Shown one piece after another: positions 1 to 62,500 of a stretch of DNA of 64,000 bases. The position numbers and the translations under genes are program-made. How positions within the stretch are numbered: position 1 is the stretch's first letter; every line of letters starts with the position of its first letter. Origin of the DNA: Amoebophrya sp. A120 (Eukaryota > Protista > Dinoflagellata); the NCBI GenBank assembly GCA_905178155.1, contig CAJINV010000001.1, forward strand, positions 4,488,233 through 4,552,232, given 5' to 3'. The notes beneath the pieces are model-generated. The model saw nothing but the letters and a program-made list of their open reading frames with translations. It had not been told where the DNA came from and made no database searches.

Positions 1-3000
1 CCCTTTGCCCTTAATATTTGCAGGCCCGCCGATTTTGCTGCGGTCGCCGAAACCCCCGAACCCGAAGCCACCGCCGAACCCGAACGGGTTGGGCGGCGCA
101 GACATGTTGGACAACACTTTCCGCGTCGCGTCCAATAGCTCGTACTGCATTTTCGCTTGCGTCGAGTTCTCCAGCGTCATTACGATCGAGCTACTACTCG
201 TTCCGGTCTGCATCGTCTCCAGCTCTTCAGCAATGATTCTGGTCTCCGACACCGACGTTGTCCCAGACGACGATCCGCTTTTTGTACTAGCTGTATCAAC
301 TACCGCTCCATTGCTATTTTTACCGGCGCCCGTAACTGGTTTTATACTACTCTCTGCACTTCGCAGCGCGACCATCCGGCGGCCCTCGCGTGGCTTCTTC
401 GTGAAGCAGGGCTGACACACTAACCCTGCTTCCTTCAACGCCAGGAGCTCGTGTCGATGGTGCCACCCACCTTTCGGCACGCGGTAGATATCCGGGTCCT
501 CCCCTTTCGCCACGTTAGCAGCGTGCTCCGCCTCGTAGCACTTTCGGCAGACGTAATAGCCCACATCGTTCGCCTTCTCGCACACCTTGCAGTGCATCAA
601 GGAGATAAAGAACGGGATCTGCGCCCGCGCGTTCTTTTCGTTCTCTTCGTCGCTGGAGGAAATCATGTCTTCGTCGTCGCTGCTGTTAACAAAGTGCCGA
701 GACTCCACCCCCGTTGCCTCGTAAACCCAACTTCTGGTCACGCGGTTTCGCCGCCGCTCGCGCGTGTAGTGTCGCCCCTTCGACTTTTTCCTTCCCGCCA
801 ACTCCTTCTTTCCACTCCGCGCCGCGGCGGCGAGCTTGCGCGCGAGTTTCGACTGCTTTTTCCGCTCCACCCACGCCTGAATGCGCGCTTTCCAGTACTC
901 GTCGTGCCCTTCGCGCACGTTCGTTTCACACCTTGCGCACTTCATTTCCTCGGCGTCGTCGTCGTTGGACGGAATGGAAAAGCTTTGCAGCTGCTGCCCC
1001 TCGGGGCAAAACACCAGCGTGCTGGGCTGCTGGTTGCGCCAGACAAAAAAAGCGTCATCCTTCTCTTCGTTCGTCAGTCGCACGTCCTCCGGAAGCAAAG
1101 CCTCCACACGACGGTAGTTGCGGTAGGGGAGTTGCCCGATCCGCTCGCCGAGCAGACCGCCAATCAGCGTCCGGTCTTCTCCCTCTTCGTCCCCGTGCTC
1201 CCGCTGGATCACGTTGGCATACCGGTCCGGGTCGTAGGTCGCGGGGGTGAGTATGATGGTCTTCGTGTTGACAAAATCATTGTAATTTGCGTTATCCGCA
1301 AAGTGGTGTTTCTCGCGCAGCCTCTCCGGGTTTGCGAAAAACTGGTTTCCTCTCCCCACGGACTCCAACTGGTCGCCCATCTCCCGGAGGCGCAAAGAGG
1401 CCAAAAACCCGAAGCTCGGGGGCCGCGCAAGAGCGGGCAGACAGCGGACCGCGGTCGCGACTTCGGACTCCTCGTGCTGCAACGGGAGGAACCCCATGCT
1501 GATTTTGTCGTTCGGCTGCGTCTCGAGCCTTCGCCGGACACTGATCCGCCCGAGCTCCAAAAGCGTCGCTGCTTCCAAGTCCAGTGCGTCGTGGTCGATT
1601 TTCTTCGCATCTAGCACGGGTAACAGATTTCCCCGCACCTGGCCGCAGCGAAGCAGGTCCAGCGCCATCCCCGTCCCCGTGCGGCCGAGGAAGGGGTCCG
1701 CATACAGGCCGCTCGTCCGCGCGTGCAGGTGCGCGAGAAAGAGCCATGCAACACGCTCCTTCTGCGCATGCAGCGTTTGCAGCTCTCGCTTGACGGTGTA
1801 GCGAAACAGCGGCGGCTGGCGCAGATTTTCCAGGTCCACCTCAACCCCGGCCGGGGAGCACCAAGCCCCGGCGAACTCGTGCACGGCCGCTTCGGCCAGC
1901 AGGAATTCCTGCTCCTCGCGGGCTCTCTTTTTCACTCTCTGCAGTTCCAACCACTCGGTTTCGGTCAACTTCACTTTTTTCTTCTTTTTCTTCTGCTTGC
2001 GGCCAGACTTTTTGCCTTCGCTTCCACGTTCATCGCCGTCTTGCAGCTTCGCCAGTTCGCTTTCTCGCAATTCGGAAACACGCGCGCCTTCCTCTGCCTC
2101 CTCAGTGCCGCGCGCAGGAGTACTGCTCTTCTTCTCTTTCTTTTCTTTCTTTTCCTCTCCTCCCGAGGGACCCTTGGTGTCTTCATCAGCCAAGTCTGTA
2201 TTTTTCTCCGCTCCAGCGTCTTCTTCCTCCTCGCTACCCGAACTAGATGAGGCACCCTTCCCTTTCCCTGGCTTCCCCTTCTTCGGCGGGGGGTTTAGCT
2301 TCTGACTTCGCTCTTTCACAAAGGACAGCATTTTTTCGAACCGTTTCGATCGGTCCTTGCTCCACGCGGTCTGCTCTTCCTTCCGCAACGACTCAGCTAA
2401 ACTCGCCGGCGGCCGATACGCCGGCGCGTCTTTCAGCGGTCCGTGGGGCATGAGCAGAATCTCTCTCCGCTGCGATTCGGCGTCCACCGCGTCGAGCAGC
2501 AAGCCGTGCTTCAAGGTGCACAGCGTCCCGAGATTCTGGTTGGCCGTCGCGACCTTCCACCCAGCGAACTCGCGGGAATGGAATTGCACGCCGCCGACCT
2601 TCGATTTGCTGCTCAATACGACATCAAATCGGATGTTCTGCAGTCGAGGGAGTTGCACGAAAACCCCGATGCTTTTCGCTGCAGATTCGAAGACGGACGC
2701 GACAGAAATCGCGGAGTATCACAAGAAAAAAGTGTTACAGTTACACATGTGTTGTAACTTCAGCAACACAAATTTGCTCTGCATGAGAGGAAAAACTTGC
2801 AATGCGCAGACCATAAGGTAAAAAACGTATGAAATGAAGCTCGGAAGCATTTCTGGCATGACAGAGGTGGACTGTCATGCTGGGCTTGCAACGCAATGTG
2901 TAACTCTAACACTTTTTTCTCGTGATACGGAGGTAAGTTTGCTCAGTGGCTGTTCGTTGGTGTCCGTTCCATCCGCAGAAGAAGCGGAGTCATTTAGTTC

Positions 3001-6000
3001 CTGCTGATCCTCCCGTTGCACTTCTATCCCGCCGCCGTCCTTATTTCTCGCGGACTCTCTCAGCTCCGCACGCAGACTTCGTGCGGCCGCTTCCATATCA
3101 CCAGAACTTGTCGCAGGAACTACTCCGCCTGTATTCAATAGTACACCGGCTTGCTGCTGTTTCCCTTGTCCGTCGGACCCGGCTCGCGCGGAGGAGAGCG
3201 CTACGGAAGTAGAGGAAATGAACGACGGGATGCTTTCGTTCAACGCGAGCTCTTCCAATTGAACCTGCAACTCGTCCGCGGAGGGTTCCGCCCACAGGTG
3301 CACGTAGGGCCAGGGCGACAGTCGCTTGAAGCCGCCGTTCCGGTAAATTTCCGCGAAACTTCCCGAACAAATGTCCACCAAGGCGCACCCGCTTCGCAAG
3401 TCCGTGACTTTCCGGCTGTGCCAATCCAGGACAAACGCGGCGGAATTCAAGCAGCCCTTTGCAAAGTCTCGGTGATCGTAAGTCTTCGGGCGGAAGAAAA
3501 ACTTCGCCGTCTTCTTGATCATCAAAGACCGGTGGTGTTTCGAGCCGTCTTTCGACGAAGCACGGGAGAGCCGAGGCTCCGGGGTGTCAGGTAGTTGTCC
3601 AGAGGTGTCTTGGTCTACTGGTGCATTTGGACCTTCTTCGACTTGTTCCTCTATTTCGCTAAACTCCTCTACTTCGTCCACAACCACCCCGCCGGAAAAT
3701 GCCTCCTTCGCTCGAATATCAAATGCAAAAATGTCTGGGTCTGGAAGTCATGCACATTTTGCATGACTCCCGTTGTCTGTGATGCATGCCGTAGCATCAC
3801 AGATTCTATGAGGGCTTCCTGATGCCTATACCGTGTCAGAAATGCCATCTCACCGTGGCAAAAAGAAAAACTGGACCGCTTTTGCTGTTCATGCAATACA
3901 GATTTATTGTAGAATCCAAATCCAGCATCACAAGTTGCATCCTTCCAGACCCAGACATATTTGCAATGCATATCGAATCAGACTTTTCGGCGCTGTCTTC
4001 GCGACCGCGACGCCAAACACCTGCCCGTCAACCGGCGCCGTCGCCGCTTTGTTCCGAACAAACCGCGAACGCCGACTGTCGAGCCTATCAAGTGCAAAAA
4101 TGTCTGGGTCTGGAAACTTGTAATGCTAAAAATGAATGATAGACGCACTGCAATACGCAGCTATGCATGACAATTTTTTTGGCTGCCATGTCTTACGTAT
4201 TCCGCATGGCAAACTGCGTTTTTGCATGACAGGTAAGAGGGCTTTTTAGTGCCTGTGCAACACAGATTCCCGAGTCATGCCAGACAAGCATGACAAACTT
4301 GCATTCTTCCAGCAGACCCAGACATTTTTACATTTGATACGCTCCGTCGTCGCTGTTTTTCCTCAAAAATTTTGCTTGTCCGCTTGTCGCGGTCAACGCA
4401 CTTGGTGTGCCTGGCGTCGACTTGGTTTTGAACAGCGCCGCCGGCGTCGACTTCGCGTTCAACAAAGCCAGATCAACGCTAGCAGTTTCGTGCTCTGCGA
4501 GAGCGAACTGACTTCCAATCGTCGGCAACGTTGGTGCGAACGAACTAGTACCCTGTTGTGAGCTTATTTTCGGCAACGGTGGCTGGATCGCGGAAGGCAT
4601 TAGGCGGCTGCTCGCTGCCGCAGCGACGGGTGTGTTCAGAGCGGACCTCGGTAAGGCCGACGACGTCGCCGGGGAACCGCGCAAGGTCGTGGTCTTCGAG
4701 ATCACGCACCAGTGGCTGTAGTCGTATGGAGAGAAAAAAGTTTGTCACAGTCACTAACTTGCAGGCTTTGCATTACAAATTTTCTTAGCATCACAAATTT
4801 TCCTTGTACTGCAGAAACACTAGGGAAATCCCTAATGAAGTTGGGCTGTGATGCATTTTTATGCATGACAAACACTTTTGTATTGCAAAAATGCGCATGA
4901 GTGATCGTGACGAACTTTTTTTCTTTGATAAGTCGTCGATCAGCTTGAATGGCACGTCCATCTCCTTCTTCGGCTCGGCCACTTTGTTCTTTTCGATATT
5001 CCGGTAGAACACCTTGTGCGGGATCAACTTCGCGCGCACCCCGTCCCGCTCTTCGATGATCAGCGGCGTTTGCATGAAGGGCTTGAAGTAGCAACTGAAC
5101 CCCTTTTCCTCGTCCTGCCAGGGGTACCGCCGGTACTGCACGCGGTGAATCTTCAGCGCGTCCCACTTCTGCTGGACCGCCAGCTGGTCCTCTTCCGAGG
5201 AGATTTCGTCTTCACTGGAGGATTTTTCCTCACTGTCCCCCGATGAATCGGAATCCGACATGCCGTCGCCCCGGCCTCGTTTTCGGAGGTAGGCTCGTTG
5301 CATCCTCTCCTCCTCGGAACTGTCCGTGTATTCACCGTAATTTCTGTACCCGCCGCCGCGTGGCGTGCTGTCGCTGAAACTGCCGGAATAATACGAAGAA
5401 TCGTCAAAAGAGTCGTAGTCGCTGTCTGAATCGTCGTCGTCCCTCCGCGCGTCCTGGCTGTTTCCCGCGGAAATCGGGGGTCGAAAGTAGAAGTTCGCGC
5501 CGTTGACTGGGACGGTGGTCTTGTACCCCAGGCCGTCTTTGGTCGGCTGCACTGCGAACATCGCTGTGCCGAACAAGCGCTCATAAATCGGGTGGTCGTA
5601 GATCGACCGCGGGAGGCGTTGGCACGGCTTCCCGTTTACCAGGAATTCCCCGGAGAGGATGTTCACTTGTAAATGACAGTAGCGACGGACGGTTTTCTTC
5701 TGCAGGGAATCGAGGGAAACTGCAGCTGCTTGTTCGCCAAACAGCTTCTCATCTTGGATTTTCGCGAGCAGTTTCCGATCCTCCGCCGAGCTGTCGTCCT
5801 CGGTCGATGCCGCAAGGATCCCTGCAGCAGTACTCCCGGCCGCGGCCTCGGTAATTTCGAGGAGGTCCTCCGGGTCCAAGTACTCATCGTCCTCCGCGTC
5901 GCCGTCGTCCACCACAAATTTCGCGTGATACCAGGGGGACAGCGCGTAGAACTGTTTTTGCGCCACGTCAAAAACTGGTGGAGAGGCCCAGTTCGCGTGG

Positions 6001-9000
6001 TTGCGCTTCAGGATACGAATGATCGTACCGACCTTGTCCACCTGCTTGTCGTTGTTCTTTTTCGCGTTCTTCTTCCGCACTTGCTTCTTCGCACCTGCAC
6101 CTGGCGCTGCCTTGTAGTTCCCGCCTTTCTTCGCAGCAGCAGCAGCAGCATCTGGCTTCTTCACGATGATCGAGGTCGTGTTGAATTTGAAACAGGACTT
6201 CTCCAAAACCTCCGCGTCTACCGCTCCCTCGTCTTCGGGCTCGTCGTCACTGTCCTGCGTTTTTGCCGCGTTTTGTTGGCCAGCTTTGTTCGTCGTCCCG
6301 CCGACTACAAAGGTGGACTTCTTCAGCATGCGCGCTTTGTGCTTGTCCACGCGCTTGCCCTCGTCCTTGTCCTCCAAACGAAAATGCTCCTTTGCGCCGG
6401 TCCGGATCCGCATCCACAGCCGGGTGTTCCAGCCCCGCGCCCACTGCATGTCGGCGGAGATCTCCGAGATGCGCACCACGTTTCCCTTTTTGATCTCGTA
6501 GTTGATGTCGTTTTTCACGTAGTTCTTGACCAGCTCCGCGGGGGTGCTGCACCTGTGCAAATTTGTGTCCTGTTCGCAGCGCATGTGCATTCTCGGAAGT
6601 TTCCCGGCCGGCGTGTCGGCGTAGGAGCCCGGCGCGCCGCGGACGGGGAAGCAGGGCAGCGGAAAATTTTCCTGGAGCATTTCCGTGACCTTTTCGTCGC
6701 TTGCTGGATCGTAGTTTGTCCACTCCAGCTCCACATTCTTCGGGAGCTCGCTCCAGTACGTTTTGGCAAACAGCGTCAACAGCTCCCCTTTCCGCTTCGC
6801 AATCAACTCGTGGACCGCAGGGGAGACGGTCTGCGCGACGGTCTCGGCGTGGTAAAGCGAGCCTTTTAGTTCGTCCGGCACCTGGCCTTCCAAGTGGTCA
6901 GAGAGTTTGGACCGAAAGAAGAGCCAGGAGAGAACGTCTTCTTCCGAGCAGCAAAGAAGGTTTGTATCTGTTCTGGGCGGAAGGCTTGCTGCACCTTGCT
7001 TTTGCTTCCCTTTTCCAGTTCCCGCTGTTTCTGAATCGATTGCGGACGCAGATACAGCCTTGCTTTTTGCCTTTGCTTTTGCCTTCTTTGACACAGTAGG
7101 TTGGGAGTCATGCTTTTCTTGTGTAGAAGTTTCTTTGCTAGTTTTAGTGTTGTCCTTCGTAATAGCAGCAACTACGCCACTTTTCACCCACTTGCCCGGC
7201 ACCTCGTCCGTCGAAACAAACGTCAGAGTGCCCATGGTCGCGACGCGCACGATTTTTTTCCGAATTTCTTGCATTTCCTTGTCGTTTTTGCCGCACTTTG
7301 CCGTTGCTGCGGAAAGGCGCTCGATCCAGTTTTGGCACACCCCCCGACACGTTCGCAACACCTCCGCCGGGTACACTTGCGATTTCGCATCAGCGTGCTC
7401 GTAGTTGCATCGCGCGATGAGAATCACCGTTGAGAGGACGTTCGGGTTGCTCCAATTTTCCAAAACGTCAAACACCAGCTCCTTCAAGTGTTTCGCGCAG
7501 AAATCATGCACAAAGTCCGAATCCCGCAGCCACTCGCACACTTGTCGCCGCCACGTTTTTGTCGTTTTCTCCGCCAAAACTGTGAAGGTTGAGAACGGAG
7601 AAAACACGTTCGCATCCGACACGGCCGACGCTTTTTCGATTTGCTTGATGCTCGACCGATCCAAATCGTACCCCGGCCCCGCTTGCCACAGCACGGATTG
7701 AATCAACGTCGCCACGTCCTGGTTCTCGAAGGACAAGGACCTCTGCGCGACCGCTTTCACCAGGCGCAGCATCTGCAACCGCACCCCGGCGCGCATTTTC
7801 CCAAACGCCTCGAATTCATTCAAGGTGATCGCCTCGTCGGCCGCGTTCTTCTGTGCGATGACCTGATTCTCATCGTGCGTCCACTCGTTCAGCCACTGCT
7901 CAGCAAGGTTTTTTTCCTTGTTCGCACCCTGGTTGCTATCACTTTTGTCGTCCTTCTTCTTCCCCTTGTTTTTCCCACCCTCGTCCTTTTTTGCCGCCGA
8001 CCCCGCAACGACCGCGTTACTCACGACGTTCACCGAGTACTTCTTCTGCGTCAAGCACCGCAGCCAAAAGCGCCTCTGCAACACCCAGTTCCACTCGTCC
8101 ACGCTGCACTTCAGGCGCGGCCGCTGCTCCCCATCCGCGCCCTCGAACGTCGCCAGTGTGTTGAACCCGTGGTTGGAAATAAAGGTCGGGTGTCGGGCGA
8201 CGTGCAGCAGGTTGCACTCGCACTTCTTCAAGCCCTTCGCTAAAGACTCGCAGTACTTCTTCGTCCCGCGGCAGATCGCTTTTTGCTTGCTGGACGCGAG
8301 CCTGATCTTGCAGACGCGAGACCGGTTCCATTTTTTCAGCGCTTCGTCCGCTTTCCACTGGTAGAGCTTGTCATTTTCGGTGTATCACAATGAAAAACGC
8401 CCCCGCCCCCGAACTTGGGAGCACTTGCATTGCAAACCTTTCCAACAGAAACACTCGCTCTTGCATCTAGCAGCATCACAGATTTCCAATCTTGAATAGC
8501 GAAGATCTGTATTGCAACAGATCCCAGCAAGAGTCGCGCTTGTCATGCAAGCAATGCTATATACGCCTAGACTCTGCATCACAAAAATTTTCATATTCCT
8601 TTCATGCATGACAAAAAGTTTTCATTTGGAGACTTGGCATCACGAATTATTGCCACTTTGGGGGTGGGGGCATTTTTCACGGTAATACGGTGCCGTTCGG
8701 GTTCGAAAACGTCCCCATCTCAATCGTGTCTTTCCGAGTTTTGTCGGAGGGGTCGCCGCAAAACGTGCGACAGAACTCGTACAGCGCGTCCCGCTGGCAG
8801 GAAAGCAGGCCCGGTTGGCGCAGTTCGAAAATGATTGCCATGTGCTCGTTCCGCTCGTACTCCGTGCCGCAGGTCGGCAACAGCCTGGCGTAAACCTCCA
8901 CCTTCAGATTGGCCGCCTGCTGCTCCAGCTGGCAGCGCTCGCACCGCTGGATTCTCGGCCCCCCGCCGAAGAGCGAAGGGCCGAAAAACCCCCCGCCGCC

Positions 9001-12000
9001 GAGATCATGATCGTCGTTTTCTTTGTCCTTATCATCCTTCTTGTCCGCCTTTTTCCCTGCGGCAGCAAGGGCAGCGTCGGAACAGGTGCAGCCCGCCATG
9101 GTTTCTAATTTGTCCATCAACGCCTCGTACTTGGCTTGTTTTTCCCGCTTCTCCGCCAGCTTCTCGGCCTGTCTTCGTTTGCACTCGGCCATCAGGTCCG
9201 CGTAGCACTCCAGCATCTCGCTGCTGCGCTCGGCGAAGCGGACCGAAAACGCATCTTCGTGCACCGTCCAGGTTGGCGGGGTCATCGGCTTTTTCGGCAC
9301 GAAAATACATCCGTCGAGAATGGGGGGGTAGCTGTGCTTCAAAGCCTCCGCTTCGCGCTCCACGAGCCATTTTTCCAGGGCATGAAGGAGCTGCTTCTGC
9401 ATTTTGGTCGTCAAATACAGCCGCTCCGTCAGTTTCCAAAAAGGAACGCCCGGAACCAGGTTGCTGCTCTTCTGATCCAAATCCTCATCGTCGTCCTCCC
9501 CTCGCTGCAAGATTCCCCAGAGCTTCTGCCCGAGGGAGTGCTCCAGCAGCAGCGGCCACTCCTTGCAGGCCTTCTTATCCAAGTAGCACATGATCGCGAA
9601 GCAGGTCAAGATGACTTGGCTCTTTCCCCGGACATCGTGAGCCTTGATGAAACTGGAATTTGTCGTCAGCAGGTCGTTATGGATTGCAAAAGTGTCTGGG
9701 TCTGGAAGATTACAAGATTTGTCATGCTTGTCTGGCATGACCAAAAAGTTTGTGATGCGTGTCCAAGAAGAAAACCTTTTGCCTGTCATGCAAAAACGCA
9801 GTTTGTCATGCGAAAAACGCAACACAAAGAAGCGCAGACCTTTCTCATGCTTGGCTGTGCATTACAGAGCATTCACTATTCCCAACGCAGCATTACAAGT
9901 TTCCAGACCCAGACACTTTTACATTTGATAGTCGTTCGATTTAAGCACGTTGTGAAACATCATGCCCACTTCCGCATACTTGCGCATCAAAACGAGGAGG
10001 TTCTCGCAAAACTCGTTGTCAATTTCCAGCTTTTTCTCGTTCAAAACAATGTCCTCGTCGATCTCCCCCTTGTCCCGCATCCGCTGCGACTTCTTGTTCG
10101 CTTTTTGCCGGGTGGAAAGCAGATGCTTCCGGACGTCGGTCGTGCTTTGCGTTGGATTTTTTTGCACAGCAGACGCTGTAGTTCTCGCTGCAGGGCTGAA
10201 GTTATTTGCATTTATGTCTGTCGTCGGTTTGTTGTACTCTTGATCTAGTGAATACCACAAGTGCCATACTGCAGTGTCAATATCCGCCAACACCGCGATT
10301 AAATCCGCCTCTCGGAGCGGTCGCTTCTCCGACGCGAGGCACAACATACTGATGTACGTTTGCACGTTCGCCGCGGAATTCATTGGGCCCTGGAACCGCG
10401 GAAAAAACAACGGAACCGCCACACTCGGATTCTCAATGACGATTTGTTCACTCTCGTCCCCAGCTGCCTGCTTTCCCGTCGCGAGACTCAGCACGGTTTT
10501 CGCGGTCCTATCAACGTACGGATCGTGCTCACGAGACAGGAGCTGGAAGAGAAATTTCTTCGCATTCGGGAGTTGGTGTGCCACGTCGACCGACGCAGAA
10601 GGGCCGCCTGCCGCTGGCACGAGGGCTTTCAACTTCGTCGGATCGCAGGCAAGCGCGCGAACTTCTTCCGATTGCTTGCTCCAGAGCTCTTTCTCCACCC
10701 AAAGATTGGTTTTTTCCACAATTGCTAGCGCCGTTCCGCAGATAGATTGCAAGGAGGTTTTCGCTGCGGCGAGTGTATTATTCGATAATTGATGTCTTCT
10801 TCCTATTTCATCGTATGGAGAAGCAGCTAAAAGTTGCGGCAACACCATCTCTGCTCGTTGCAACAGGATAGTTCCGATTGAGATTTTGTTCTCCACTTTT
10901 TCACCCGCCGCTCCAGTAGAAATCTGGTACTTCTTAATCTTTTCCCAGCGATTCGCCAACTTCCTGGTAGCTTCCACCAGCGCGCTCTGCGACACCGTCT
11001 TCAAGATGCACCGGTCCACTGGTAGCTGTTTGTCCATGTAGAACGCGGACAGGCACTCCTGGCAATAATCCAACCTACAAACGACGCAGTGCGCATAGCC
11101 CTCACTGGACGGCTTTACAGTGCGGCATCCGTCGCAAGAATAATTCCGCGGCGCCCACGTCAGTATCAAGGGTGTCGGTGTGTGGTGTCTCCTCGAGCAA
11201 AAGAACAGCACGCGGTCATTTTTAGAAGTTGTGTAGGGAGCGAACTTAGTACTTGATGCACCTCGTCCTGCATCTTCCATTATTGCCTCGTCAACCACTG
11301 GAGAGCAGAAGTTGTTTTCTGCATTTGTACTATCTATTTGCTCGGAGTTTATTTGTTCCTTTCCGCTGTTCTTCCCCACCTCGATTTCAACCTCGTCACC
11401 TCCGTACCCGTGAGTGAAGTCCCGTCGTGCCGGGCCGAAAAAGAAGAACTTTTTCTTCTTACTCGCCTGTGCGCCGCGCCCCCGTCCTTTCATGTAGACC
11501 CGCCTTCCCGTCTCCGATTCGCGGAACAGGTCGTCTTTTTGGAACGGAAGTTTGTCTTCGTTCCAATCGTCTTGCAGTACGTTTCCCTCGATCCACCTTT
11601 TCGCAAACTCCGCGTCTGACAGAATCTCTTGCGGTTTCTTGCCAATTCGCTTCAGTACGTTCCCCTCATTTTCTTGTAGCTGTCTGAGCTCGTCCTGCAC
11701 CTGCTGCAACGTTTTCTCCAGCGCGAAAGACTGCAGCGCGAACATCAGCATTTTGTAGGGCGCTTCGTGCCCGTACAGCCGCACGCAGGCGAGGTGCAGA
11801 ACCTGCTTCAGTGCGATCCAAACGGCGGCACGCCGCCAGGGACGCTGCAACGGATGGACGGCCTTGCCATCGTCGTCAAGATTTTGCTCCCCGATGATAG
11901 AGTCCAAACGACACTCGTCGCGAACCTTCTTTCGCACCGAAATCAGCAAAGCATCGACCTGGTGCGGGGTAAGAATTTTTGAGTGCCATCCATATGTTCT

Positions 12001-14608
12001 ACTTCCTGTAGTCCTCAATGTGTGCAAGACATTGCTTCTATGATCAATGCTCTGATAGAATAGTCAACTTTAAAGTTTCCAAAATGACAATCCGAACCTC
12101 TTTGTTCTTCAAGTCTGCCGTGGTTTTCTGCACCCAATCAAAATCCGCATTGCGGACCGCCGGGTGCAACCTTTGCACGACCTCCGCACCCTTGTCGTTT
12201 GTACAAGTCGTCGTCAACAGGGTCGGCGGTGCTTTCTCCTGCGCATTGTCGACAACCGCGACGGCGGCCGGCTTTCCCCCCGAGTTCTTTCCCTTCTTTC
12301 CCCCTCCTGGTGGCACGACGGAAGTAGATGCGGTGTTCGCAGCCACTTCCGGCACAGCGCTCGCAACCGCGGCCGCAGCGACCACACTCGTCCCTTGCGA
12401 ACAATTGGCACTATCTCCTTCGGCCTTCATCCGGTTCCACTTACTCTGAAACTGGTCCACCAAGTGCACTGCGTCGCCCACGTCGTAGACCAAATCGCCC
12501 CCCAGCACCGCCATAAGGAACTCCGTCACAAACTGCGGTTTGTCCACGTCCGAGTCCATCTGCCCCGGGCCTTTTTCCGCCCGCTTGCAGGTCGCCAAGC
12601 GCTGCGGATTCCAATACAGGTCGGACAGAAGTAAGGCGAAGGACGGGGTCGTGATCCTCGCCCACGAAACGTAGCCGCCGAGCGACTGCGTGGCCTCGAA
12701 CTCCTCGACCACCTCGTCGTCCGGCTCCGGCGCGTATCCGATGCAAGAGCGTCTCCACCCCATAGCTGTCTTGCAAATCTGCATGGTAAAAATGTTTCTC
12801 ATGCGGAGCCCCATTAGAAGCATTTTCCAGTCGTGTTTTGTGATGCTTGAATCAGCATGACGTCCTAGATCTGTTATGCTACTGGAGCTAGCTGGACAGG
12901 ACTACACTACGAGGCCAAACCTGTCATGCGCAGCAATCAAAGCTGGTTGATTTGTCTAGCAGATTTGAGATTTCCCATCTTGAGTATGGGGTGGGGACGT
13001 TTTTAGATAGGATAGCGCGGTCAACTTCCGCTTGCGCTCCGCCTCGCTGTCGTCACTGGATTGTTGCAGATCGAAGTCGTCCATGAACCAGTCGTCGCTG
13101 AGATCGGAATTATTAGCCCGCGAAGACACGTCGGAGGAATCGCTGTCGTCGTCAGAAGCGCTCCCCGCCGAGTCGGAGTCGGACGACGCGCGTTTTGTTT
13201 TCCGCTTCATCTTTTTCTTCTCCTTTTTCAGCCGTTCCTTCATCTTTTTCCGCCGCAAATCGTCCATCTTCGCCGTTTTCTTCTTCGCATCCAGTGTCCG
13301 CTTCAGCATTCCGTCCACCCAGCCGAGCTTTTGCTCCCAGCCCGGGTCGAAGAGGTCGAAATTTTCCAGAAACGTTTCCTCCCGCTCCTTGTCGTCCTCC
13401 TGCGCCGGAAGGTCTTCCAGTCGCACGACTTCCTTCAGCTTCAATTTCAACGGGTGGTTGGCCAGGGCACGCGGAATCTGCTGCTTCAGATCGTTTGCGT
13501 CGCCGGAGGACGCGCCTTGGCCCAGGACGGCGGAGGCAGACGAGACGGCCACGTCCCAGGAACACACGTACACCTTGTCTTCGTCCTCTTGGTGCCGTTC
13601 CATAAACACCACGGCATTCTGCGCCCGGACGTAGAAGCACCACTGCTCCGCTTTGTCCAATTCCAGCAAGCTGTCGCGGATCTTGGCGGCCGTCATGGGG
13701 CGGAAAAACTGATCCTCGGGGGTCGTGACTCGGTTCGGATAATCCGCGGGCAAAATGTCGGCCAAGTCGTACGGGAGGGTGGGCGTGACCTTTGCCCCGA
13801 AGCCACCGAACATCCCAAACCCCACCGCTCTTTCCTCCTCCTCGTCGCGCGCCGCTAGGTTTGCGTGCATTTCGGGATCTAAGCCTATTCGGGGGTTCTG
13901 TTCCAGCGCACAGGGGATGCACATCGCATACTCGCATACGCTGCAGAAAAACATCTTTTCCTCCGTGATTTTTCGCATCTGGACCTCGTCGTCTTCATCC
14001 TGGTAGCAGCAACCCGGACCCCGACACTCCACCTGCGGATCGTGGCTGCGCAGCCGGAAGCAAGTGGGAACTCCCTCGATGTACGTCAAAGGATGGTCGT
14101 GCATACAAAAGACACGGAGGGATCGCTCCTCCTCATAGAACCCCTTTTTTCCGACTGATGCCTCACGACCTGCAGGAGCTCCAGGAGCGGTTTTTGGCAA
14201 GAAAGCACCACTGTCCTTGCTCACAGCAGCGGGCAAATTCTTTTCATCCACCGGCTGCGCATCAAGCCTCTTGGACGAGAACCAGAGCGGATCGAGGTCG
14301 CTGTGCAAGTCGCAAAAGCGCGCGAACAGCTTCCCCAGCTTTTCCAGGTGTGCATCTTCGATTCCAAAGAGCGGCGCGCAGGCGTTTCCGGTCTCCTTCA
14401 GTGCAGTCGAAAGTTTCTCTTGCTGGAAAGACTGCAAGAATTCCAGTACCGCCTGTTGCGTCTTCCGCGGATTCTCTTCCAGTTTGTTCGGCAGATCCTG
14501 TTGCAGAAAAATCGAGCTAAACACCCGATTCATCTTCAGCACGCTCGGCAGTGGCACAGACGAGGGAGAGGACTGGTCCTCCATTTTTTCGTAAACCGCT
14601 TGGACCAT
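1..14608 (-). CDS. Giant (>4000 aa, truncated at window edge) DUF6606/DUF3638-DUF3645-type protein (putative VTD-like deubiquitinase family); 7 introner introns + 1 canonical intron
   Basis: Approximate exons 14608-13015, 12729-12098, 11958-9931, 9672-8688, 8377-4931, 4719-4341, 4084-3973, 3711-2928, 2711-<1 join in frame. Family-like motifs: FYVRAQNAVV, PWRRAAVWIALKQVL, FGKMRAGVRLQ..WQAGP, VNILSGEFLVNGKPCQRLP..HPIYERLFG, LIDDYSHW, QNLGTL, TSGLYADPFLGRTGT. Canonical GT-AG intron at about 11959-12097. The catalytic region would lie beyond the window. Confidence 0.75.
2717..2927. mobile_element. Introner/MITE family B (211 bp), TSD CGGAG
   Basis: TIR tatcacaagaaaaaagtgttacagttacaca / tgtgtaactctaacacttttttctcgtgata. 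cggag at 2712-2716 and 2928-2932. Excision gives KLTS-AISVASV in frame. Confidence 0.93.
3717..3972. mobile_element. Introner/MITE family A (256 bp), TSD TCGAA
   Basis: TIR tatcaaatgcaaaaatgtctgggtctggaa / ttccagacccagacatatttgcaatgcata. tcgaa at 3712-3716 and 3973-3977. Join KSLIR-AKEAF. Confidence 0.93.
4086..4339. mobile_element. Introner/MITE family A (254 bp), TSD not recognisable; GT-AG-compatible intron 4340->4085
   Basis: Family A TIRs. On the minus strand GC|GTATCAAATG...TTGATAG|G joins DDGA-LDSRR in frame. Confidence 0.88.
4725..4930. mobile_element. Introner/MITE family B' (206 bp), TSD AGTCG
   Basis: TIR tatggagagaaaaaagtttgtcacagtcac / gtgatcgtgacgaactttttttctttgata. agtcg at 4720-4724 and 4931-4935. 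Join LIDD-YSHWCV. Confidence 0.92.
8383..8687. mobile_element. Introner/MITE family C (305 bp), TSD CGGTG
   Basis: TIR tatcacaatgaaaaacgcccccgccccc / gggggtgggggcatttttcacggtaata. cggtg at 8378-8382 and 8688-8692. Join NPNGT-ENDKLYQW. Confidence 0.93.
9678..9930. mobile_element. Introner/MITE family A (253 bp), TSD GTCGT
   Basis: Family A TIRs. gtcgt at 9673-9677 and 9931-9935. Join LKSND-LLTTNSS. Confidence 0.93.
12735..13014. mobile_element. Introner/MITE family D (280 bp), TSD GCGCG
   Basis: TIR tatccgatgcaagagcgtctccaccccata / tatggggtggggacgtttttagataggata. gcgcg at 12730-12734 and 13015-13019. Join RKLTA-PEPDDE. Confidence 0.92.
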
Positions 14609-15200
14609 GATTCTTTTATTTACCCAGTCGCCTTCGGGACGAGGACTTATTTGTGACGTACCATAGTCCCCTCACGTCACTCAACTCGCCCGTCACTCTA
14701 CCAGGGTGGGGGCTTGCGCACTCTCATCGGATCGCGTGAAAGAGCGGGGCCTCTCTTTTTTCTTACATCAAAAAAGCCCGAACGAAATCATATCTGGACA
14801 GCACGATTCTACTCTACATTAGAATTCACCTGGCTTGTTACTGTCTGTGCGCAAAATAGGAACGATTGCAAAAAAGAAGCCCGATTGTTCCATTTTGTAT
14901 TCACAGCCATCTATTTCCCCACCATGTAAAAATCCACTTTGAGTCCGATTCCATGTCCCCTTATTGTAACCGATCTGGTAAGTACCAGCCGAGACCTCAA
15001 CCTCAGCACACCGACCGCCCATGAACAAATTGACAATTATCGCTGTCTCACGCTACCACCTGTGCGCTTCTGCGACTTTTCGGATCCGGAAAGATCAATC
15101 AATGCGCTTCGTTGATGTATTTTGTCGCTGTCTGCGCACTTGCGCGATATCTTTCACCAAACTTGGTTTTCTCAATGTAGCTCACATGCTCTACTGTCCT

Positions 15201-16814: not shown

Positions 16815-17511
16815 CTAGGAAACAAGGCGACTCGCAAGTTTTGCTCGGAGCGCCGAGAGCCACGCACCACTACCAAAAGAAATCGTGCCGAAGATGAGAA
16901 GAACCACACCCAACAAAATCATTACTGCAATGCGGCGGCCGCCGACTGTCGCGAGATTCGGCACGACGCTGTAGCCATTGCATCCGTATTGGGTACAGAC
17001 GCATATCTATCACACAGAAAAAAACGGGCAGGTCATATTTGTAATGCAAAAGTAAATACACAAAAAAAATTGTATTGCATATCGTAAATAGCATGCTACG
17101 AGGCCGCCCATGACAGATTTTTATTTTCTGTGTATTTATTTTTGCATTACAAATATGCCCTGCAAGCTTTTTTCTGTGGGATAATATCCTAGGGTCGCTT
17201 GCGTTGGCGTAGTAGCAACAGGCTGTGGGGCACGGTTCGTATTTCATCTCGTACATCGACACGTCCTTAATGTTCATCTGCTGTCCGTCGCTCCTCTCCG
17301 TTCCGCGGATCAAGCTTGTGCTTGCTGTGGCGTCCCTGCGCACGGTCGACATGAGCACCCTCGGCGACATCGAGCCGGACCGTGGCGACATAAACGGAGG
17401 CGCTCCTGCTCTCGGGGACGACACCATCGCTGCTCCTGGCGAAGACACTGTCGCTGCCACCGGCGCACCAACGAGTGCTGCGCCATACTGACTTTGTTCC
17501 GGCGAGGACAT
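16815..17511 (-). CDS. Small protein with SPR-rich N-terminus, Cys-rich segment and C-terminal transmembrane helix (one introner intron)
   Basis: After removing 17008-17183 plus one TSD: MSSPEQSQ...PCPTACCYYANASDPR-ICVCTQYGCNGY...IAVMILLGVVLLIFGTISFGSGAW...LVS*. Confidence 0.7.
17008..17183. mobile_element. Introner/MITE family E (176 bp, long foldback TIR), TSD ATATC
   Basis: ~55-bp TIR tatcacacagaaaaaaacgggcaggtcatatttgtaatgcaaaagtaaatacaca / tgtgtatttatttttgcattacaaatatgccctgcaagcttttttctgtgggata. atatc at 17003-17007 and 17184-17188. Confidence 0.92.
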
Positions 17512-47539: not shown

Positions 47540-48396
47540 GGTGCGTGTTGGTCGTGCTTGTCGTTGTCGCTCGCCAAAAGGATTTATTTTTTGTTTTTAT
47601 GTTGAGAGAATGAATTCCGATGGGGATAACATTCAGTAAGTCTTGCAATCTTTCATTTTCATTTTGTTTACACAAAGAAATTTCGTACGGGATTGATACA
47701 GTGGAAACCAGAAATGAGTGCAGTGGATACTTGGTTTGGAATCAAAGAGTCGCTATATTACATACTTTAGAGGTTTTCTGATAAAGATCAGCAATGACGC
47801 GTTACGAGAAAACAACCGACAATTGAAAGTCGTGACAAAAAGTTTGTGTACACTGAAAGCCAATTAACGTAAACCTCATGTCGCGGATAGAGACGCACGC
47901 TGTTTTTTCTTGTTCCTGTTGCGGTGTGTAGTGGTGACAGTCTTCACTAACATCAAGTGTTACAACTATGGACTGACGATTACGAAATCCGCAGATCCTG
48001 CAGTGTGTGCGTGAAGCACGTTCGACAGTCAGACGCCCAAATAAGAGATGCGTTTTTCACGAAAGCAGTGAACCTTCATCGTCTTGCAGCAAAAGTGGGC
48101 CTTCGCCTTCTTCGTACACCTACCAGCAGAATAATTCGCAACACTAGAAGGATCTTTTCATCTTCAGACCTCGCAGCAACATGATCCCTCGTGATCTTGA
48201 CGCTTCAGCAGTTGCTTCTTGACTCACGACAGTGATCGCAGAGACTTTTCGCGTCACGATAACCACATCCAGCGAAACGCGGCTCTTCAGAAAGAAGCCA
48301 ACCGCTTCCAGTTCCTGCTGAACAGTCCAACTCGCTCGGCGAAACTGCCGCCAAACAGCGCCGCTTTATTATTTGCATGGTCGATACACAGTATTT

Positions 48397-48611: not shown

Positions 48612-50232
48612 CTACAGTATGTAAAGCAAGTATGTATGAATGCCCACTTGCGTTTCATCCACTAACTCAGCCAGTGGCGACGAATGCGCGCCAGCGTCCG
48701 TGCGCGTCACCCGCTCTTCCAGAATCGCACGCAGCCGGACTTGCTGCTCCGCGCTCAGCAACGGCTCCACTTGGTTTCGGAATTCCTTGCTGGCGTAGAG
48801 CGCGTACTCACTGAGCCACTTCTCGCGGACGGTGGCAAAGGAATTCGTCCGGCAGATGCGCAGCGCTTCGCTGTATGCGTGCTCGTAATTTTTAGCAGCT
48901 CGACCGGCGGGGTCCTCGAGCATCGCCTTTTTCGTTCCGTAGCCCTCCGCAGCAGTGTCTAGCTTCGCGATCTCCTTTTCCGTCCAGTCCGCCTGCACAT
49001 CCGCGTCTACGCTTTCCAGCCGCCAGATCTCCACGCGCTCCTTCGTGAGCCACGCACCGAATTGCTTTGCATTCATTTCCGTGACCAGCCGCATGGAAAA
49101 CAGCCGGTCGATCATGCTAAACTCGCGGGAGTGTATGCATTGCAATATGCAGTCTGGGTTTGGAAAGTTGTGAAGATCATGCATGAACAATAAGAGCACT
49201 GCACTGCGCTGACAAGCATGTTGACAGATTTTTTCGTGTCTCTGTGTCGTCTATTCCGCATGAGAAACTGCGTTTTTGCATGACAGACAAAAGAAGCCTC
49301 CGAGGCCACACAACACAGAGCGCAACGTCATGCCAGACAGACATGACAAGTCTCGCAATCTTCCAGGCCCAGACCCATTTGCATTTGTTAAGGTGCCGGC
49401 TCTTTCTATTCGGGACCCAAGTCGGCAGCTTCTTGATGTGGAAAAGGTTCCGGATCCACCTTTGCTCCTTTGCGGGGAGCTTCTTAAACTTCTCAAAATT
49501 TTCCTTGCCGATTATCCGCATGTGAAGCTTCGCCGCCAGCGCCTTCAGGTCTGGGAGGACGTAGGGAAGACACAGCTGCCCGGCCTTCTTGATCACGCGG
49601 ATGAACGAAGCGCAGGGGTTAGTGTACAGCATGTCCTCCAGCGGCACCATGCGCAATTCCGTGCCGGCCGCGTTGGGGTCCGTAACCGCACAGCGCATAG
49701 CCTTCAGCCAAGACTCGAAGTCTGCTGCCCGGTAGGTTTCCCGGACTACTGGCCTGATTTTGTACACAGTGGCGTCGATATGCTGGTAGTCCTGCTGGAT
49801 CTTGTAACCCACCCGGATGCAATTGATATCGAAGGCCTCGACCAACTGCTCCAAATCGCAATGGGCGTAGCGTATCAAGCTCAGCTCCACTTCTTCGCCG
49901 TCGATGGTCACGGCGTGGCTCGCGCAGTCCAAAACTCGCGGCTTCAGCGGGTCGCCCTTCTGCCAGTCCTCGAAAAACGACCCTGCGTAGTAGACGTCGA
50001 TGTCGTTGTACGGAGTCTGTTTCTCCGTCCGGGTCTCGCGGTCTATTTCAACAGCCGCCGGGTATGAGCCGGCGATTATGAAATCCGTGGGGTGTCCCAG
50101 GTAGCTACGCAGCAGCTCGTCCGCTCGTGCAACCACTTTGGACAGCGGTAAGGGGCGCTTGGGAGCCAGGCTTTCGAGTACCGGGCGCGTTTTTGGCGCA
50201 AAGGCAAATGCCTCATCACGAGATCGCTTCAT
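48612..50232 (-). CDS. Nucleotidyltransferase-like protein, paralog 2
   Basis: FIIAGSYPAA...TPYNDIDVYY...VELSLI...LVEAFDINCIRVGY. Colinear with paralog 1 through to the C-terminal region (ERVEIWRLES vs ERVIVWQLET). Confidence 0.65.
49134..49390. mobile_element. Introner/MITE family A (257 bp, decayed), TSD GAGTG/AGGTG
   Basis: tatgcattgcaatatgcagtctgggtttggaa ... ttccaggcccagacccatttgcatttgtta. The join RKSRH-SREFSM is supported by alignment to paralog 1. Confidence 0.88.
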
Positions 50233-57479: not shown

Positions 57480-57818
57480 TTCGGATCTCTGGGAGCCGAA
57501 GCCGATGCCCTTCTCGTCCACATACTGTACGCACAGAAAGTCAGTGCGCTGAAACACGTGCACGAGAATACTTGACGTTGTTTCATCATCCGGAGGTCGT
57601 GTGATTGTCTGAATACCAATTGATCAGGACAGAAAGAAAAAGATTCTGCTCGATGGTTTCGTATTCAGCAACAAGACATTTCTTTCGCGCGTGTGGAATG
57701 CTGGTTCTCTCACTAAGCAAAAAGCAGAGAGACCAGCTTGGATTTGCGCACAGAGCTCTAAACTGATTTTCTAGTCATTAGTTTCCTCTACTGAAGTAAC
57801 TAAGTAGCCATCGGAAGA

Positions 57819-59546: not shown

Positions 59547-62500
59547 TTAAAGGTCATCACAGGACCAGAACTCCTCCTCGTTTCGATTTCGTTTTGGCCC
59601 GAGCAGACTTTCGATCTCGAACAATTTCTTTTCCATGCCCTCGCGGGACTCCACCGTGGGCCAGGGCTTCGCCACCCCCTGCTGATCCGTGAGTTGGGCG
59701 CGCTTGCGCAAAATCTGCACCGCGCGCAGTCGCTTGTGCACCGACTCAATCTGGCGCATCTCCGACTCCACAATCTTCTCGTGCTCGTGCTTCGTATGGT
59801 AGTACTTCTTCGCGCGCACCACAGAGCAGTTCCAGGAGCAGTACCAGTGATCCTTGGACAAAACATCGAACCGCTCCTGATTGACCTTCAACTCCGCCAA
59901 AGCGGTCCGCAACTGCTCCTCGATCTGCAACCCCCGCGACACGTAGCGCTGCTGGCCGTCCAGCAGCTCTTGGAGGGTGAGCATCAGCTGCTTCTGCTCC
60001 TCCCCGGGGCCAAAGTAGGTGCCGCCCGGGCTGGTGGACAGCAGCGGTGGTGCCGTCGTGGTGCCGTCCTGTGGCTGCCCGCTCGCGGCGTAGCTGTTAT
60101 AGGACGAGCTGTGATTTCCTGATCTTCGCAGTAGTAGATCCTGGTCGTATATGTCGAGCTTTTGTAGCCGCTTTCGTAACCGGTCCGCCTCGTTTTTGCG
60201 CGCGTCCAACGCCTGCGACACTTGCTGGAACTCGTGCGTGAGCGCGGACACCTCGTCCTGCGCGTCTTTTCGCGCGAAGAACGCGTCGTAGTACTTCGCC
60301 GCGCGCTCCACCGCGTGCTCGGAGATCTCCTGCGCGAGCAGGGTCTGCGTGTGGCCCCACGCCCGCAGCGTCTCCATGTGCCGGGACTCCAGGTTCGCGA
60401 GCTCCATTAGCAGCACGTCAAACTCCTGTAGCAGGAGTTCGTGACCGGAAGCGGCTGGCGGCACCTGCTCCGGGGCTGGATTTTGTTCCCCCGATATTAT
60501 CGTAGACCCTCTTTCTATTCCTGGCTCGGACTCGCCTTCCGACCGCTGCTTGCTTCCGTGGCGCGACGGCCCGCTACTGGAGGTGCCAAGGGACTGCTTC
60601 GAAGTGGTGCCAACATCGCCTGCTCTACCGAGCAAAACCGGACCTCCGGTCGAAATTGTTGCACCGCTTGCAGCAGTACCCGTCTGAATCGTGCCTGGCA
60701 TCACATACTTGTTGTTCAGATCTGCCAGGTCGCTGGGCGGACAGTACAGCGGCGAGGTTGCTATCGGTGTGTTTCCGCTTTTCCTTCCGATGCGCATGTT
60801 GTTCGCGTTGCGCCAGTCATCCAAAATGTCGTCGCGCTCTGAGGAGGGCGTCAGACTACTCGTGTCAGACGATTCGCCTCTTGCGGAAGCCCACGCGCCG
60901 TCGCTCGCGCTCCCGTAGTCGCTGTGGTAGGCTGCGGAATCCGACGTGTAGCCCTGCTGCAACTGGCTCGTGCGGGGGGACAGCGCCGTGTCAATCTCCA
61001 TTTTATTCCGTTGCTGCAAGTGCGCCGGGACGGGCGAGGCGTAGCTGCTGCTACTCCGACTGGGGCCGCTACTCGACGACGCGTGTGGCTGCACCGGCGT
61101 GGAAGCGGAGCTGGAGGACGCAGCTGCAGCGGCGGCTTTGTTCGCCGCGACGTCCACATGCGAGTAGGTGAGGGACCGAAACCCATTCGGCGACTCGCCC
61201 GCGATGATGTCTTGCAACAAGTGATCCACGTCGTTTTCCTCCACGGAGCCGCTCTCGAACGAGGTCTGGACCGTGGGCCGACTGCTTCCGCTGGTGCTTT
61301 CGCGCGTTGGGTCGGGCGGAGGGGGCGGTGGTGGAGGGGGAACAGCAGGGGTCGAGCTACTAGACGCTTGTTGAAGAGGACCTCCGACGCTGCTCAAACC
61401 GGGCTGCTGCATCTGCTGCGCCGCGGGGTCTGCCGCTCGGTAGGCGTCCAGAAGATTCTTCGAGAGCATGTCGTTATTTTTCTGCCTACTGGTCTCTTCG
61501 CTTGACGAAGAACTGGAAGCTGTTGATGTGGATTTTGCATTCGTCGTGACAAGAGCAGTGCCCGATCCGCCCATCCGGTACGAGGGCAAGGGCACCGGTC
61601 CGACGCTACCTGGCTGCGAACTACCGATTGGCACGCTCGCGGCCCCACCACCTGAATAAGCCAACACTTCGTCTTCCAGAGTGGGCACCGGCAGCAGCGG
61701 TGGCGGCGTGTGCGGCGGATTCTGGCTGCCATTTATTGCGGACGATGGAGACTGCACAACTCGCTGCGTTGGAGCAAGTACTGCGCTAGTACTGTGCTGT
61801 TGCTGCTGCTGCACCTCTACTTCCGCCACCGTTCGGGAGGAGCTGAGTGCCGTCGCGCTGCCTGCGGCGGTGGAGCTGGCGCTGGCCGCGGTCAGTTTCG
61901 ATTCCAGACTCGTGCGGGACTCGGGCCTATCGATCTCGACAGCTTGTTGCTGCTGTTGGTCCTGCACAAACCTGGATAGGAAGGCCGCACTCTGCACTTC
62001 CGTCCAGTGGTGTTCTTGCAGGACATATCCTGAGTAAAAACGTCCCCACCCCATAGTTGTCATGCAGATCTGCAAGCACAAGAGCATTTGTAATGCGCAT
62101 CCCCATGAGAGGCATTTCCCATCGTGTTTTGGAAGTTGTAATGCTGTCAACAGGACAAGGAGATGGATTTGTTATGCGGCTTCCCTTGCTAAACTGCATT
62201 ACACTACAGCCTGCAACTTGTCATGCGTGGCTCCCAAAACTTTCAGGTTTGTGTTGCAAAATCCCCATTTTGACTCTGGGGTGGGGACGTTTTTACAAAT
62301 GATAGCACACGAACCAGTTCGGGGCGATTCCAAGGGCCGATGTCGGCCAAACCGCGGTCAACCCCGTCACCATGCTTCCCCCCAAGAAACTTCGGTATGT
62401 TCTCTTCGTCCACAATCTCACATAGCGCCGGGTAGAAATCTGGATGATTTTTGACAGAAAAATTTGCTTGATTCTCAGTTATATACCTGTCGTTCGCGTA

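What the first reader, a model, noticed from the sequence alone, without database searches (positions are those of the whole stretch)
2712..62309. 17 of 19 elements cannot be excised precisely at GT-AG: structure-guided splicing or DNA-level excision
Seen: sense-strand TSDs are unrelated to each other (CTCCG, TTCGA, CGACT, CACCG, ACGAC, CGCGC, GATAT, GCGGA, ACTTT, GCACG, GAAGA, CACGG, CCGAG...). Sliding the junction through the six equivalent positions gives GT-AG only for the 4086 and 40069 copies. The same genes also carry normal GT-AG introns (e.g. 11959-12097, 34849-35048), so two removal regimes coexist. Inference: the TIR stem brings the two TSD copies together and defines the junction. 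The route could be a relaxed spliceosome, a non-spliceosomal endonuclease/ligase, or programmed DNA excision like ciliate IESs with pointer repeats.
Basis: partly seen in the sequence, partly recalled or inferred. Interest (0 to 1): 0.8.

Follow-up and report, generated by a model that had tools for sequence, protein, structure and literature searches.

The report
Amoebophrya introners cut at fixed offset
These are the already described transposon-derived introns of the marine parasite Amoebophrya A120, which are missing precisely from spliced transcript assemblies without using GT-AG ends; four readable junctions suggest one fixed cut position, likely made by a relaxed spliceosome.

Summary
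Real, but already known. The window encodes an NCBI protein of Amoebophrya sp. A120 (100% identical). Its 19 clear elements (plus one doubtful) match that strain's published introner elements: inverted repeats starting TAT-N7-AAA, 5-bp direct repeats, non-canonical ends (PMC7789003). Only 40069 gives GT-AG in any of the six registers; the GT-AG at 4086 is not one of them.

Removal of element plus one repeat copy is seen in spliced contigs or deposited models for 14 of 20. No cryptic GT-AG use was seen.

One junction with diverged repeats (49134) is unambiguous: the intron starts 1 nt before the 5' repeat and ends 4 nt after the 3' repeat (TT-CT). Three others fit the same register. This places U at +2 and A at +3, as in native GTA donors. 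In 97 related elements with a perfect repeat and a known gene direction, no G or AG is selected.

Likeliest is RNA splicing by a relaxed spliceosome (0.55). A Euglena-like stem-and-spacer pathway is the main rival (0.3). DNA excision and reverse-transcriptase artefact are unlikely.

The parts
2717..2927 (-). TIR element, 211 nt, repeat CTCCG (sense); predicted intron 2713-2928, GT-CC
   Evidence: P0001 removes 216 nt
3717..3972 (-). TIR element, 256 nt, repeat TTCGA; predicted AT-CG
   Evidence: P0001 removes 261 nt
4086..4339 (-). TIR element, 254 nt, diverged repeats GAGCG/GGCTC; model fits register 4 or 5 (GT-CT at 4); nearby GT..TAG not used in the model
4725..4930 (-). TIR element, 206 nt, repeat CGACT; predicted TT-AC
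   Evidence: P0001 removes 211 nt
8383..8687 (-). TIR element, 305 nt, repeat CACCG; predicted GT-CC
   Evidence: P0128 removes 310 nt
9678..9930 (-). TIR element, 253 nt, repeat ACGAC; predicted CT-GA
   Evidence: P0128 removes 258 nt
11959..12097 (-). canonical GT-AG intron, 139 nt
12735..13014 (-). TIR element, 280 nt, repeat CGCGC; predicted CT-CG
   Evidence: P0128 removes 285 nt
17008..17183 (-). TIR element, 176 nt, repeat GATAT; removal untested, host frame unclear
24889..25194 (-). TIR element in dynein gene, 306 nt, repeat GCGGA; predicted AT-GG
   Evidence: ungapped homology after element+5 removal; no transcript piece shown
26869..27523 (-). long TIR element in dynein gene, 655 nt, repeat ACTTT; no Pfam hit in two overlapping ORFs
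   Evidence: spliced contig piece begins at 27524, other side not shown
30623..30874 (-). TIR element in dynein gene, repeats AGTTG/AGTCG; contig piece end implies register 4 or 5 (GT-TC at 4)
30954..31232 (-). TIR element in dynein gene, repeat GCACG; predicted GT-AC
   Evidence: (summed length)
31409..31699 (-). TIR element in dynein gene, repeat GAAGA; predicted AT-AG
   Evidence: (summed length, outer border)
33915..34218 (-). TIR element in dynein gene, repeat CACGG; spliced contig skips 309 nt = element+5
34849..35048 (-). canonical GT-AG intron, 200 nt
39402..39635 (-). TIR element in dynein gene, repeat CCGAG; predicted GT-GA
   Evidence: (summed length, outer border)
40069..40347 (-). 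TIR element in dynein gene, repeats CAAAG/CAAGG; the only GT-AG, and it lies in register 4
46941..47167 (-). TIR element, 227 nt, repeats AAACA/CAACC; predicted AT-AC; not covered by transcript contigs
47967..48261 (.). doubtful decayed element, repeats with one mismatch, no coding context
49134..49390 (-). diverged TIR element, 257 nt, repeats CACCT/CACTC
49130..49391 (-). observed removed segment, 262 nt, ends TT..CT, zero sliding: 1 nt before the 5' TIR and 4 nt after the 3' TIR
   Evidence: (X3, X4, X5; one sample)
62026..62304 (-). TIR element, 279 nt, repeats TGTGC/TGTCC; predicted CT-TC; not covered by transcript contigs
1..14610 (-). host gene 1, large protein (deposited pieces P0128 and P0001; P0001 carries PF12340 and PF12359), with 7 elements
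24700..41750 (-). host gene 2, axonemal-type dynein heavy chain (approximate span), with 8 elements and many canonical introns

Best explanation
These are Amoebophrya A120 introner elements, small inverted-repeat transposon copies with 5-bp target duplications that are missing precisely from spliced transcript assemblies, likely removed from the RNA by a relaxed U2-type spliceosome at a likely fixed position, 1 nt before the first repeat and 4 nt after the second. Shown: identity with the published class; removal of element+5 in 14 of 20 cases (7 in spliced contigs, 7 in deposited models); the exact cut in one case. Inferred: that the 1/4 register is general; that the donor is read as N-U-A (the repeat's TAT start mimics the native GTA donor with +1 free); that the acceptor is set by distance from the 3' repeat and needs no AG; that the spliceosome is the catalyst. 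Because each repeat end supplies the signals, the element would work in either orientation and at any target site.
For: Organism and class. Precise removal. Retention gives in-frame stops in 18 of 18 coding cases. Seven of eight dynein junctions aligned to homologues, with no gap at the junction; 40069 gave no hit. Register: 49134 is exactly 4; 30623 and 40069 are 4 or 5; 4086 is 4 or 5. Only 4 fits all; if registers were random, the chance that the other three fit is (2/6)^3, about 0.04. The only GT-AG copy is canonical in register 4. Native donors start GTA in 6 of 8 and GTAT in 4 of 8 (the eighth read). Table S4 of PMC7789003 lists nine predominant A120 motifs, all starting N-T, and nine for A25, whose repeats start TTA, all starting TT, so +2 U is kept under two different repeat ends. 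The paper finds most spliceosomal proteins and U2, U4, U5, U6 but no U1 in A120. Elements lie both ways relative to transcription, 48:38.
Against: No lariat, inhibitor or direct-RNA data were seen. The spliceosome is inferred only. There is no enrichment of G at +1 (27 of 97, flank 0.30) or of AG at the end (7 against 7.7 expected), and an available AG 3 nt upstream is ignored in the 4086 model: unusual for a spliceosome. Strong stems (z about -3 or lower in 18 of 20) would bury both sites. Only one junction excludes register 5. X3-X5 are one sample, are only guessed to be RNA, and may be the data behind the deposited models. The 30623 call rests on a piece end, not a listed joint. Table S4 may reflect aligner placement.
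Confidence: 0.55

Rival explanations
1. RNA-level removal by a separate, Euglena-like pathway (non-spliceosomal nuclease and ligase, or a dedicated complex) that measures fixed spacers from the terminal stem: N1-TAT...ATA-N4.
For: No selection on either terminal dinucleotide. AG ignored at 4086. Arm-to-arm stems are predicted for 17 of 20 elements. Euglena uses a stem-anchored spacer code, N3CDG...CH'G N5-6|R, tested by knock-in (PMC12501133 abstract), and its introns leave as circles (PMC11282704 section 6). U1 snRNA was not detected.
Against: At the one exact junction the five terminal pairs have predicted probability 0.0, and the same holds for 31409. TIR positions 4, 5, 7 and 10 pair in only 49-68% of 109 elements. 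The register reproduces the native donor at +2 to +4. One copy is an ordinary GT-AG intron in the same register.
Confidence: 0.3
2. The precise junctions are reverse-transcriptase template switches across hairpins flanked by direct repeats; in vivo the elements leave through nearby cryptic GT-AG sites.
For: A hairpin with direct repeats is the known recipe for such artefacts (PMC8240250 passages). All transcript evidence here is assembled contigs, presumably from cDNA. Open in-frame GT-AG pairs exist within 40 nt for 18 of 20 elements.
Against: The 49134 joint has zero shared letters. At 30623, 40069 and 49134 the product is not the one given by the longer (3-nt) shared stretch. A mature mRNA would no longer hold the element, yet the one 15-kb contig that lacks the canonical introns has the precise lengths. 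Homologues show no indel at 7 junctions.
Confidence: 0.07
3. Programmed DNA excision at some life stage, with the 5-bp repeats as pointers, as for ciliate IESs.
For: Transposon-like ends and flanking repeats. Only one DNA-like run was laid, and contigs drop rare variants. Other life stages were not examined.
Against: X1 contigs, which retain canonical introns, run unbroken from exon into element at 12 of 12 displayed borders (5 by at least 31 letters, 7 by 24-29). The 49134 junction is a chimera of both copies with no overlap, not a retained pointer. The cut is asymmetric with respect to transcription although elements lie both ways. From general knowledge, no germline-soma split is known in this parasite, so precise DNA excision would erase copies that have instead aged to about 66-85% identity.
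Confidence: 0.05

Closest known systems
Introner elements of Amoebophrya sp. A120 (Farhat et al. 2021, PMC7789003)
   Same: Same strain by protein identity; repeats starting TAT + 7 nt + at least three A; 5-bp direct repeats; about 240-nt non-canonical introns; coexistence with GT-AG introns; hairpin idea already proposed.
   Different: Nothing in kind. The paper's Fig. 3 legend calls the border position unknown and the splice sites variable relative to the hairpin; data here point to one register. [quoted passage not shown]
Euglena nonconventional introns (PMC12501133; PMC11282704)
   Same: No GT-AG, terminal inverted repeats, slidable direct repeats, fixed spacers between stem motif and cut that are shorter at the 5' side.
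   Different: Motif CDG/CH'G with spacers 3 and 5-6 and a purine at the next exon start. Here TAT/ATA, spacers 1 and 4, and no purine bias (56 of 97 against 0.563).
Fritillaria borealis non-canonical introns (PMC11282704 section 6; PMC13326754 abstract)
   Same: Transposon-derived, with TIR and TSD, escaping GT-AG, removed by a modified U2 spliceosome.
   Different: Preferred ends AG-AC and AG-AT; U1 retained and U2AF duplicated. Here no terminal preference apart from the repeat-borne +2 U.
TIR/TSD introners of algae and other dinoflagellates (PMC9860276, PMC12130899 passages)
   Same: Non-autonomous DNA transposons that become introns and leave the mRNA unchanged.
   Different: Those carry or co-opt GT/GC and AG from the target duplication. 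Here target sites are unfiltered.

Membership tests
Amoebophrya A120 introner elements | Occurs in Amoebophrya sp. A120 | tested here: met
   P0128, 100% identity over the whole query, named Amoebophrya sp. A120 by NCBI
Amoebophrya A120 introner elements | IR starts TAT, seven variable bases, then at least three A | tested here: met
   17 of 20 sense 5' ends, counted (not 24889, 47967, 49134); definition
Amoebophrya A120 introner elements | 3-5 nt direct repeats at the borders | tested here: met
   13 of 20 perfect 5-mers, 7 diverged
Amoebophrya A120 introner elements | Repeated families; removed as non-canonical introns | tested here: met
   self-BLAST families; removal in 14 of 20
MITE (non-autonomous TIR DNA transposon) | TIRs, constant-length TSD, no coding capacity | tested here: met
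   89 of 103 related elements have an exact 5-bp repeat; at every other length from 2 to 8 at most 9 of 103 match; no Pfam hit in two ORFs over the longest copy
MITE (non-autonomous TIR DNA transposon) | Cognate transposase and empty sites | not testable with these tools
   no genome held; no fetched locus matched the window over more than 320 nt
U2-type spliceosomal intron | GT(GC)-AG ends | tested here: not met
   1 of 20 in the window; 8 of 109 possible elsewhere
U2-type spliceosomal intron | U at +2 and donor-like +3/+4 | tested here: inconclusive
   holds for all 20 if register 4 is general; directly seen once
U2-type spliceosomal intron | Lariat intermediate, dependence on U2 and U6 | not testable with these tools
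   needs lariat sequencing or inhibition
Euglena nonconventional introns | N3CDG...CH'G N5-6|R signature | tested here: not met
   ends are TAT/ATA, spacers 1 and 4, no purine bias
Euglena nonconventional introns | Stem joining both ends | tested here: inconclusive
   predicted arm pairing of 20 or more bases in 17 of 20, but terminal pairs open at 49134; prediction only
Euglena nonconventional introns | Excised as full-length circles | not testable with these tools
   no raw RNA reads cover the window genes
Ciliate IES (features recalled, not from a call) | One pointer copy retained at the junction | tested here: not met
   49134 junction takes 4 bases from one copy and 1 from the other, with no overlap
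Ciliate IES (features recalled, not from a call) | Element-free somatic DNA | tested here: inconclusive
   one DNA-like run shows unbroken borders; only 15 of 602 joints were displayed; rare alleles and other stages not seen
Reverse-transcription artefact (falsitron) | Hairpin with flanking direct repeats | tested here: met
Reverse-transcription artefact (falsitron) | Junction within the shared repeat | tested here: not met
   zero shared letters at 49134; not the longer shared stretch at 30623 and 40069
Reverse-transcription artefact (falsitron) | Absent from direct RNA reads | not testable with these tools
   no such run was listed

The most novel reading that the evidence does not exclude
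Amoebophrya A120 runs a second splicing system, convergent with Euglena's, that ignores both terminal dinucleotides and cuts by a simple ruler code, N1-TAT...ATA-N4. Any insertion of these transposons, at any site and in either orientation, is then silent in the mRNA.
Probability: 0.3. Interest if true: 0.75.

Novelty: already known. Interest (0 to 1): 0.36.

Why it matters
The class is published, but how about 60% of this parasite's introns are removed without GT-AG, and apparently without U1 snRNA, is still open. A fixed 1/4 register would turn 'no clear signature' into a testable rule (N-U-A donor, distance-set acceptor). It can be checked in hours on existing RNA-seq by using only introns whose repeats have diverged, and it separates a relaxed spliceosome from a Euglena-like pathway. 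It would also explain why these transposons spread through coding exons without target-site choice.

Tried and rejected
(1) My idea that 4086 had become a GT-AG intron by a 3-nt deletion: rejected, since P0001 reads DDGADS, not DDGALDS.
(2) An excess of repeat mismatches at positions 4-5 (13 of 19 in the window): it vanished in the larger set, 1/2/3/3/3 over 12 oriented mismatched elements. Dropped.
(3) Selection for G at +1 or AG at the end: none. At the six position-5 mismatches the 5' copy has a purine in 5 of 6, too few to use.
(4) Cryptic in-frame GT-AG use: candidates exist but none was seen in contigs or models.
(5) No RNA holder was listed on record. 46941, 47967 and 62026 had no contig cover. 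Window 1-24399 was never laid.
(6) No whole genome was held, and the metagenome records could not be extended.
(7) Rfam: 0 matches at gathering score. Earlier scan notes: none.
(8) Rows dropped: one search kept 100 of 111 elements and oriented 46; one search oriented 109 of 143 (method check on the window: 17 of 17 confident calls correct among 18). The generic scan found 13 of my 20 window elements at their true borders plus one inner mis-call.
Full report
OBSERVATION. A scan for TAT...ATA spans with an exact flanking 5-mer and paired ends gave 12 hits up to 400 nt, against 0-2 in each of 10 shuffles. Relaxed scans and reading added the rest, for 19 clear elements and one doubtful (47967). 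Median length is 268 nt and GC is 0.34-0.53. All host frames that could be identified are on the minus strand. Thirteen of 20 repeats are perfect. Sliding through six registers gives GT-AG only for 40069. The GT..TAG at 4086 removes element+2, which is not one of the six.

WHAT IT IS. An exon of gene 1 is 100% identical to an NCBI protein named Amoebophrya sp. A120. The dynein exon's best named hits are dinoflagellates. Farhat et al. 2021 (PMC7789003) describe, for this strain, more than 60% non-canonical introns of about 240 nt, inverted repeats starting TAT + 7 nt + at least three A, 3-5 nt direct repeats, hairpins joining the exon borders, a nearly full spliceosome and no detected U1 snRNA. 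I read the abstract, sections 10, 11 and 16, passages, supplement legends and supplement part 3 of 5 with Table S4; figures were not available. Seventeen of 20 sense 5' ends fit that motif. The finding is this published class.

IS REMOVAL PRECISE? Retaining an element gives in-frame stops in 18 of 18 coding cases. Removing element+5 gives the longest two-sided open frame for 16 clear cases, ties at 26869, and is not the best for 24889 and 47967, with 17008 weak. Contig 9 of run X3 (guessed RNA; canonical introns are gone) skips 309 nt at 33915, exactly element+5. Its record coordinates imply 837 nt for 30623+30954+31409 and 523 nt for 39402+40069, again element+5 each; inner borders are known only from the sums. 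Runs X3-X5 (one sample) skip 262 nt at 49134. Deposited models P0001 and P0128 remove element+5 at all seven elements of gene 1; they may rest on the same RNA data. That makes 14 of 20. Seven of eight dynein junction peptides align to homologues with no gap at the junction (26869 has a one-residue gap 7 residues away; 40069 gave no hit). Open in-frame GT-AG alternatives exist within 40 nt for 18 of 20 elements, but the two closest for each element other than 40069 need shifts and nearly all change the protein. None was seen in use.

WHERE IS THE CUT? Perfect repeats hide it; diverged ones show it. Let k be the number of bases of the upstream copy kept in the exon. At 49134 the joint 49129 to 49392 has zero sliding letters and equals k=4: the intron is one base, the element, then four bases, with ends TT..CT. 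At 40069 the contig piece starts at 40348 with no mismatch, and at 30623 the piece ends at 30617; both mean k=4 or 5 (the second is read from a piece end). At 4086, P0001 reads DDGADS, which only k=4 or 5 gives; the GT..TAG would give DDGALDS. Only k=4 fits all four, and 40069 is GT-AG exactly at k=4. The chance that three random registers fit is about 0.04. In k=4 every intron begins N-T-A, like native donors: GTAT 4, GTAC 2, GTTC 1 (its eighth row was mis-set, and that intron reads GTGC). The paper's Table S4 lists nine predominant A120 motifs, all N-T, and nine A25 motifs, all T-T, where repeats start TTA. Its text says no clear signature was found and that the border is unknown. Aligner behaviour could shape that table.

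WIDER SAMPLE. Of 103 whole TA..TA elements, 89 have an exact 5-bp repeat. Across families, 109 of 143 could be oriented by coding signal. Target sites match flanking composition: G at the would-be +1 in 27 of 97, AG at the would-be end in 7 against 7.7 expected, GT-AG possible in any register in 8 of 109. The main family lies both ways relative to transcription, 48:38. So insertion is not filtered for splice dinucleotides, and the needed signals are in the symmetric ends. No transcript data exist for these loci.

MECHANISM. Elements fold far better than shuffles in 18 of 20 cases, but the terminal pairs are predicted open at 49134, 31409 and 46941, and several inner positions pair in only half to two-thirds of copies. 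This fits reading of a short motif and a distance better than measuring from a perfect stem base. I favour a relaxed U2-type spliceosome (0.55), with Fritillaria as precedent (PMC11282704 section 6; PMC13326754 abstract and two passages). Against it are the complete indifference to G and AG and the buried sites. A Euglena-like stem-and-spacer pathway is close behind (0.3; PMC12501133 abstract and passages). Template switching (PMC8240250 passages) predicts junctions inside shared sequence, which 49134 lacks (0.07). For DNA excision, X1 contigs keep canonical introns and cross 12 of 12 displayed exon-element borders unbroken (5 by at least 31 letters, 7 by 24-29), but only 15 of 602 joints were shown and contigs drop rare alleles (0.05).

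NOVELTY. The class, the non-canonical ends and the hairpin idea are in print. I found no statement of a fixed register for Amoebophrya in searches, or in passages of PMC12130899, PMC9860276, PMC12005148, PMC11453091 and PMC12621601. The library lacks most subscription papers. [quoted passage not shown] Verdict: already known, with a small, testable refinement resting on one exact and three bounded junctions.

Noticed in passing
window, inside the elements: An 8-nt motif GCATNACA and its reverse complement occurs 66 times in 5599 nt of elements against 3 times in 58401 nt outside, in both orientations and in 19 of 20 elements. It may be a transposase or splicing-factor binding site; I did not see it in the sections of PMC7789003 that I read.
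   Followed up: partly
window 1-14610: Deposited models P0128 (13144-7626, partial) and P0001 (from 7274) split what is one open frame after intron removal; joined with the part beyond the window it would be about 6,700 aa.
   Followed up: partly
window 30954-31232, 40069-40347: With the preceding G these copies begin GTATCCTG, which resembles the minor-spliceosome donor as I recall it; the paper reports no minor spliceosome in this strain.
   Followed up: no
window 17008-17183: A 279-codon minus-strand frame (16870-17709) reads through this element without a stop, so removal may not be needed here.
   Followed up: no
window 30623-30669, 31433-31470 (runs X8, X9): Raw RNA reads with the same species label carry these repeat ends with other flanks but do not cover the window genes: the families seem to exist and be transcribed at other loci in a different isolate.
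   Followed up: no
window 26189-26387 and 45655-45832: Near-identical short duplications (76 nt at 123-nt spacing in a dynein intron; 91 nt at 87-nt spacing at a gene's 3' end).
   Followed up: no
window 26869-27523: A 655-nt member, more than twice the usual length, with an internal segment of higher GC; two overlapping ORFs gave no Pfam hit.
   Followed up: partly
L084:77-328: A related element whose first base has changed to C; in register 4 its intron would start GC, an accepted spliceosomal donor. Its orientation was called but not.
   Followed up: no
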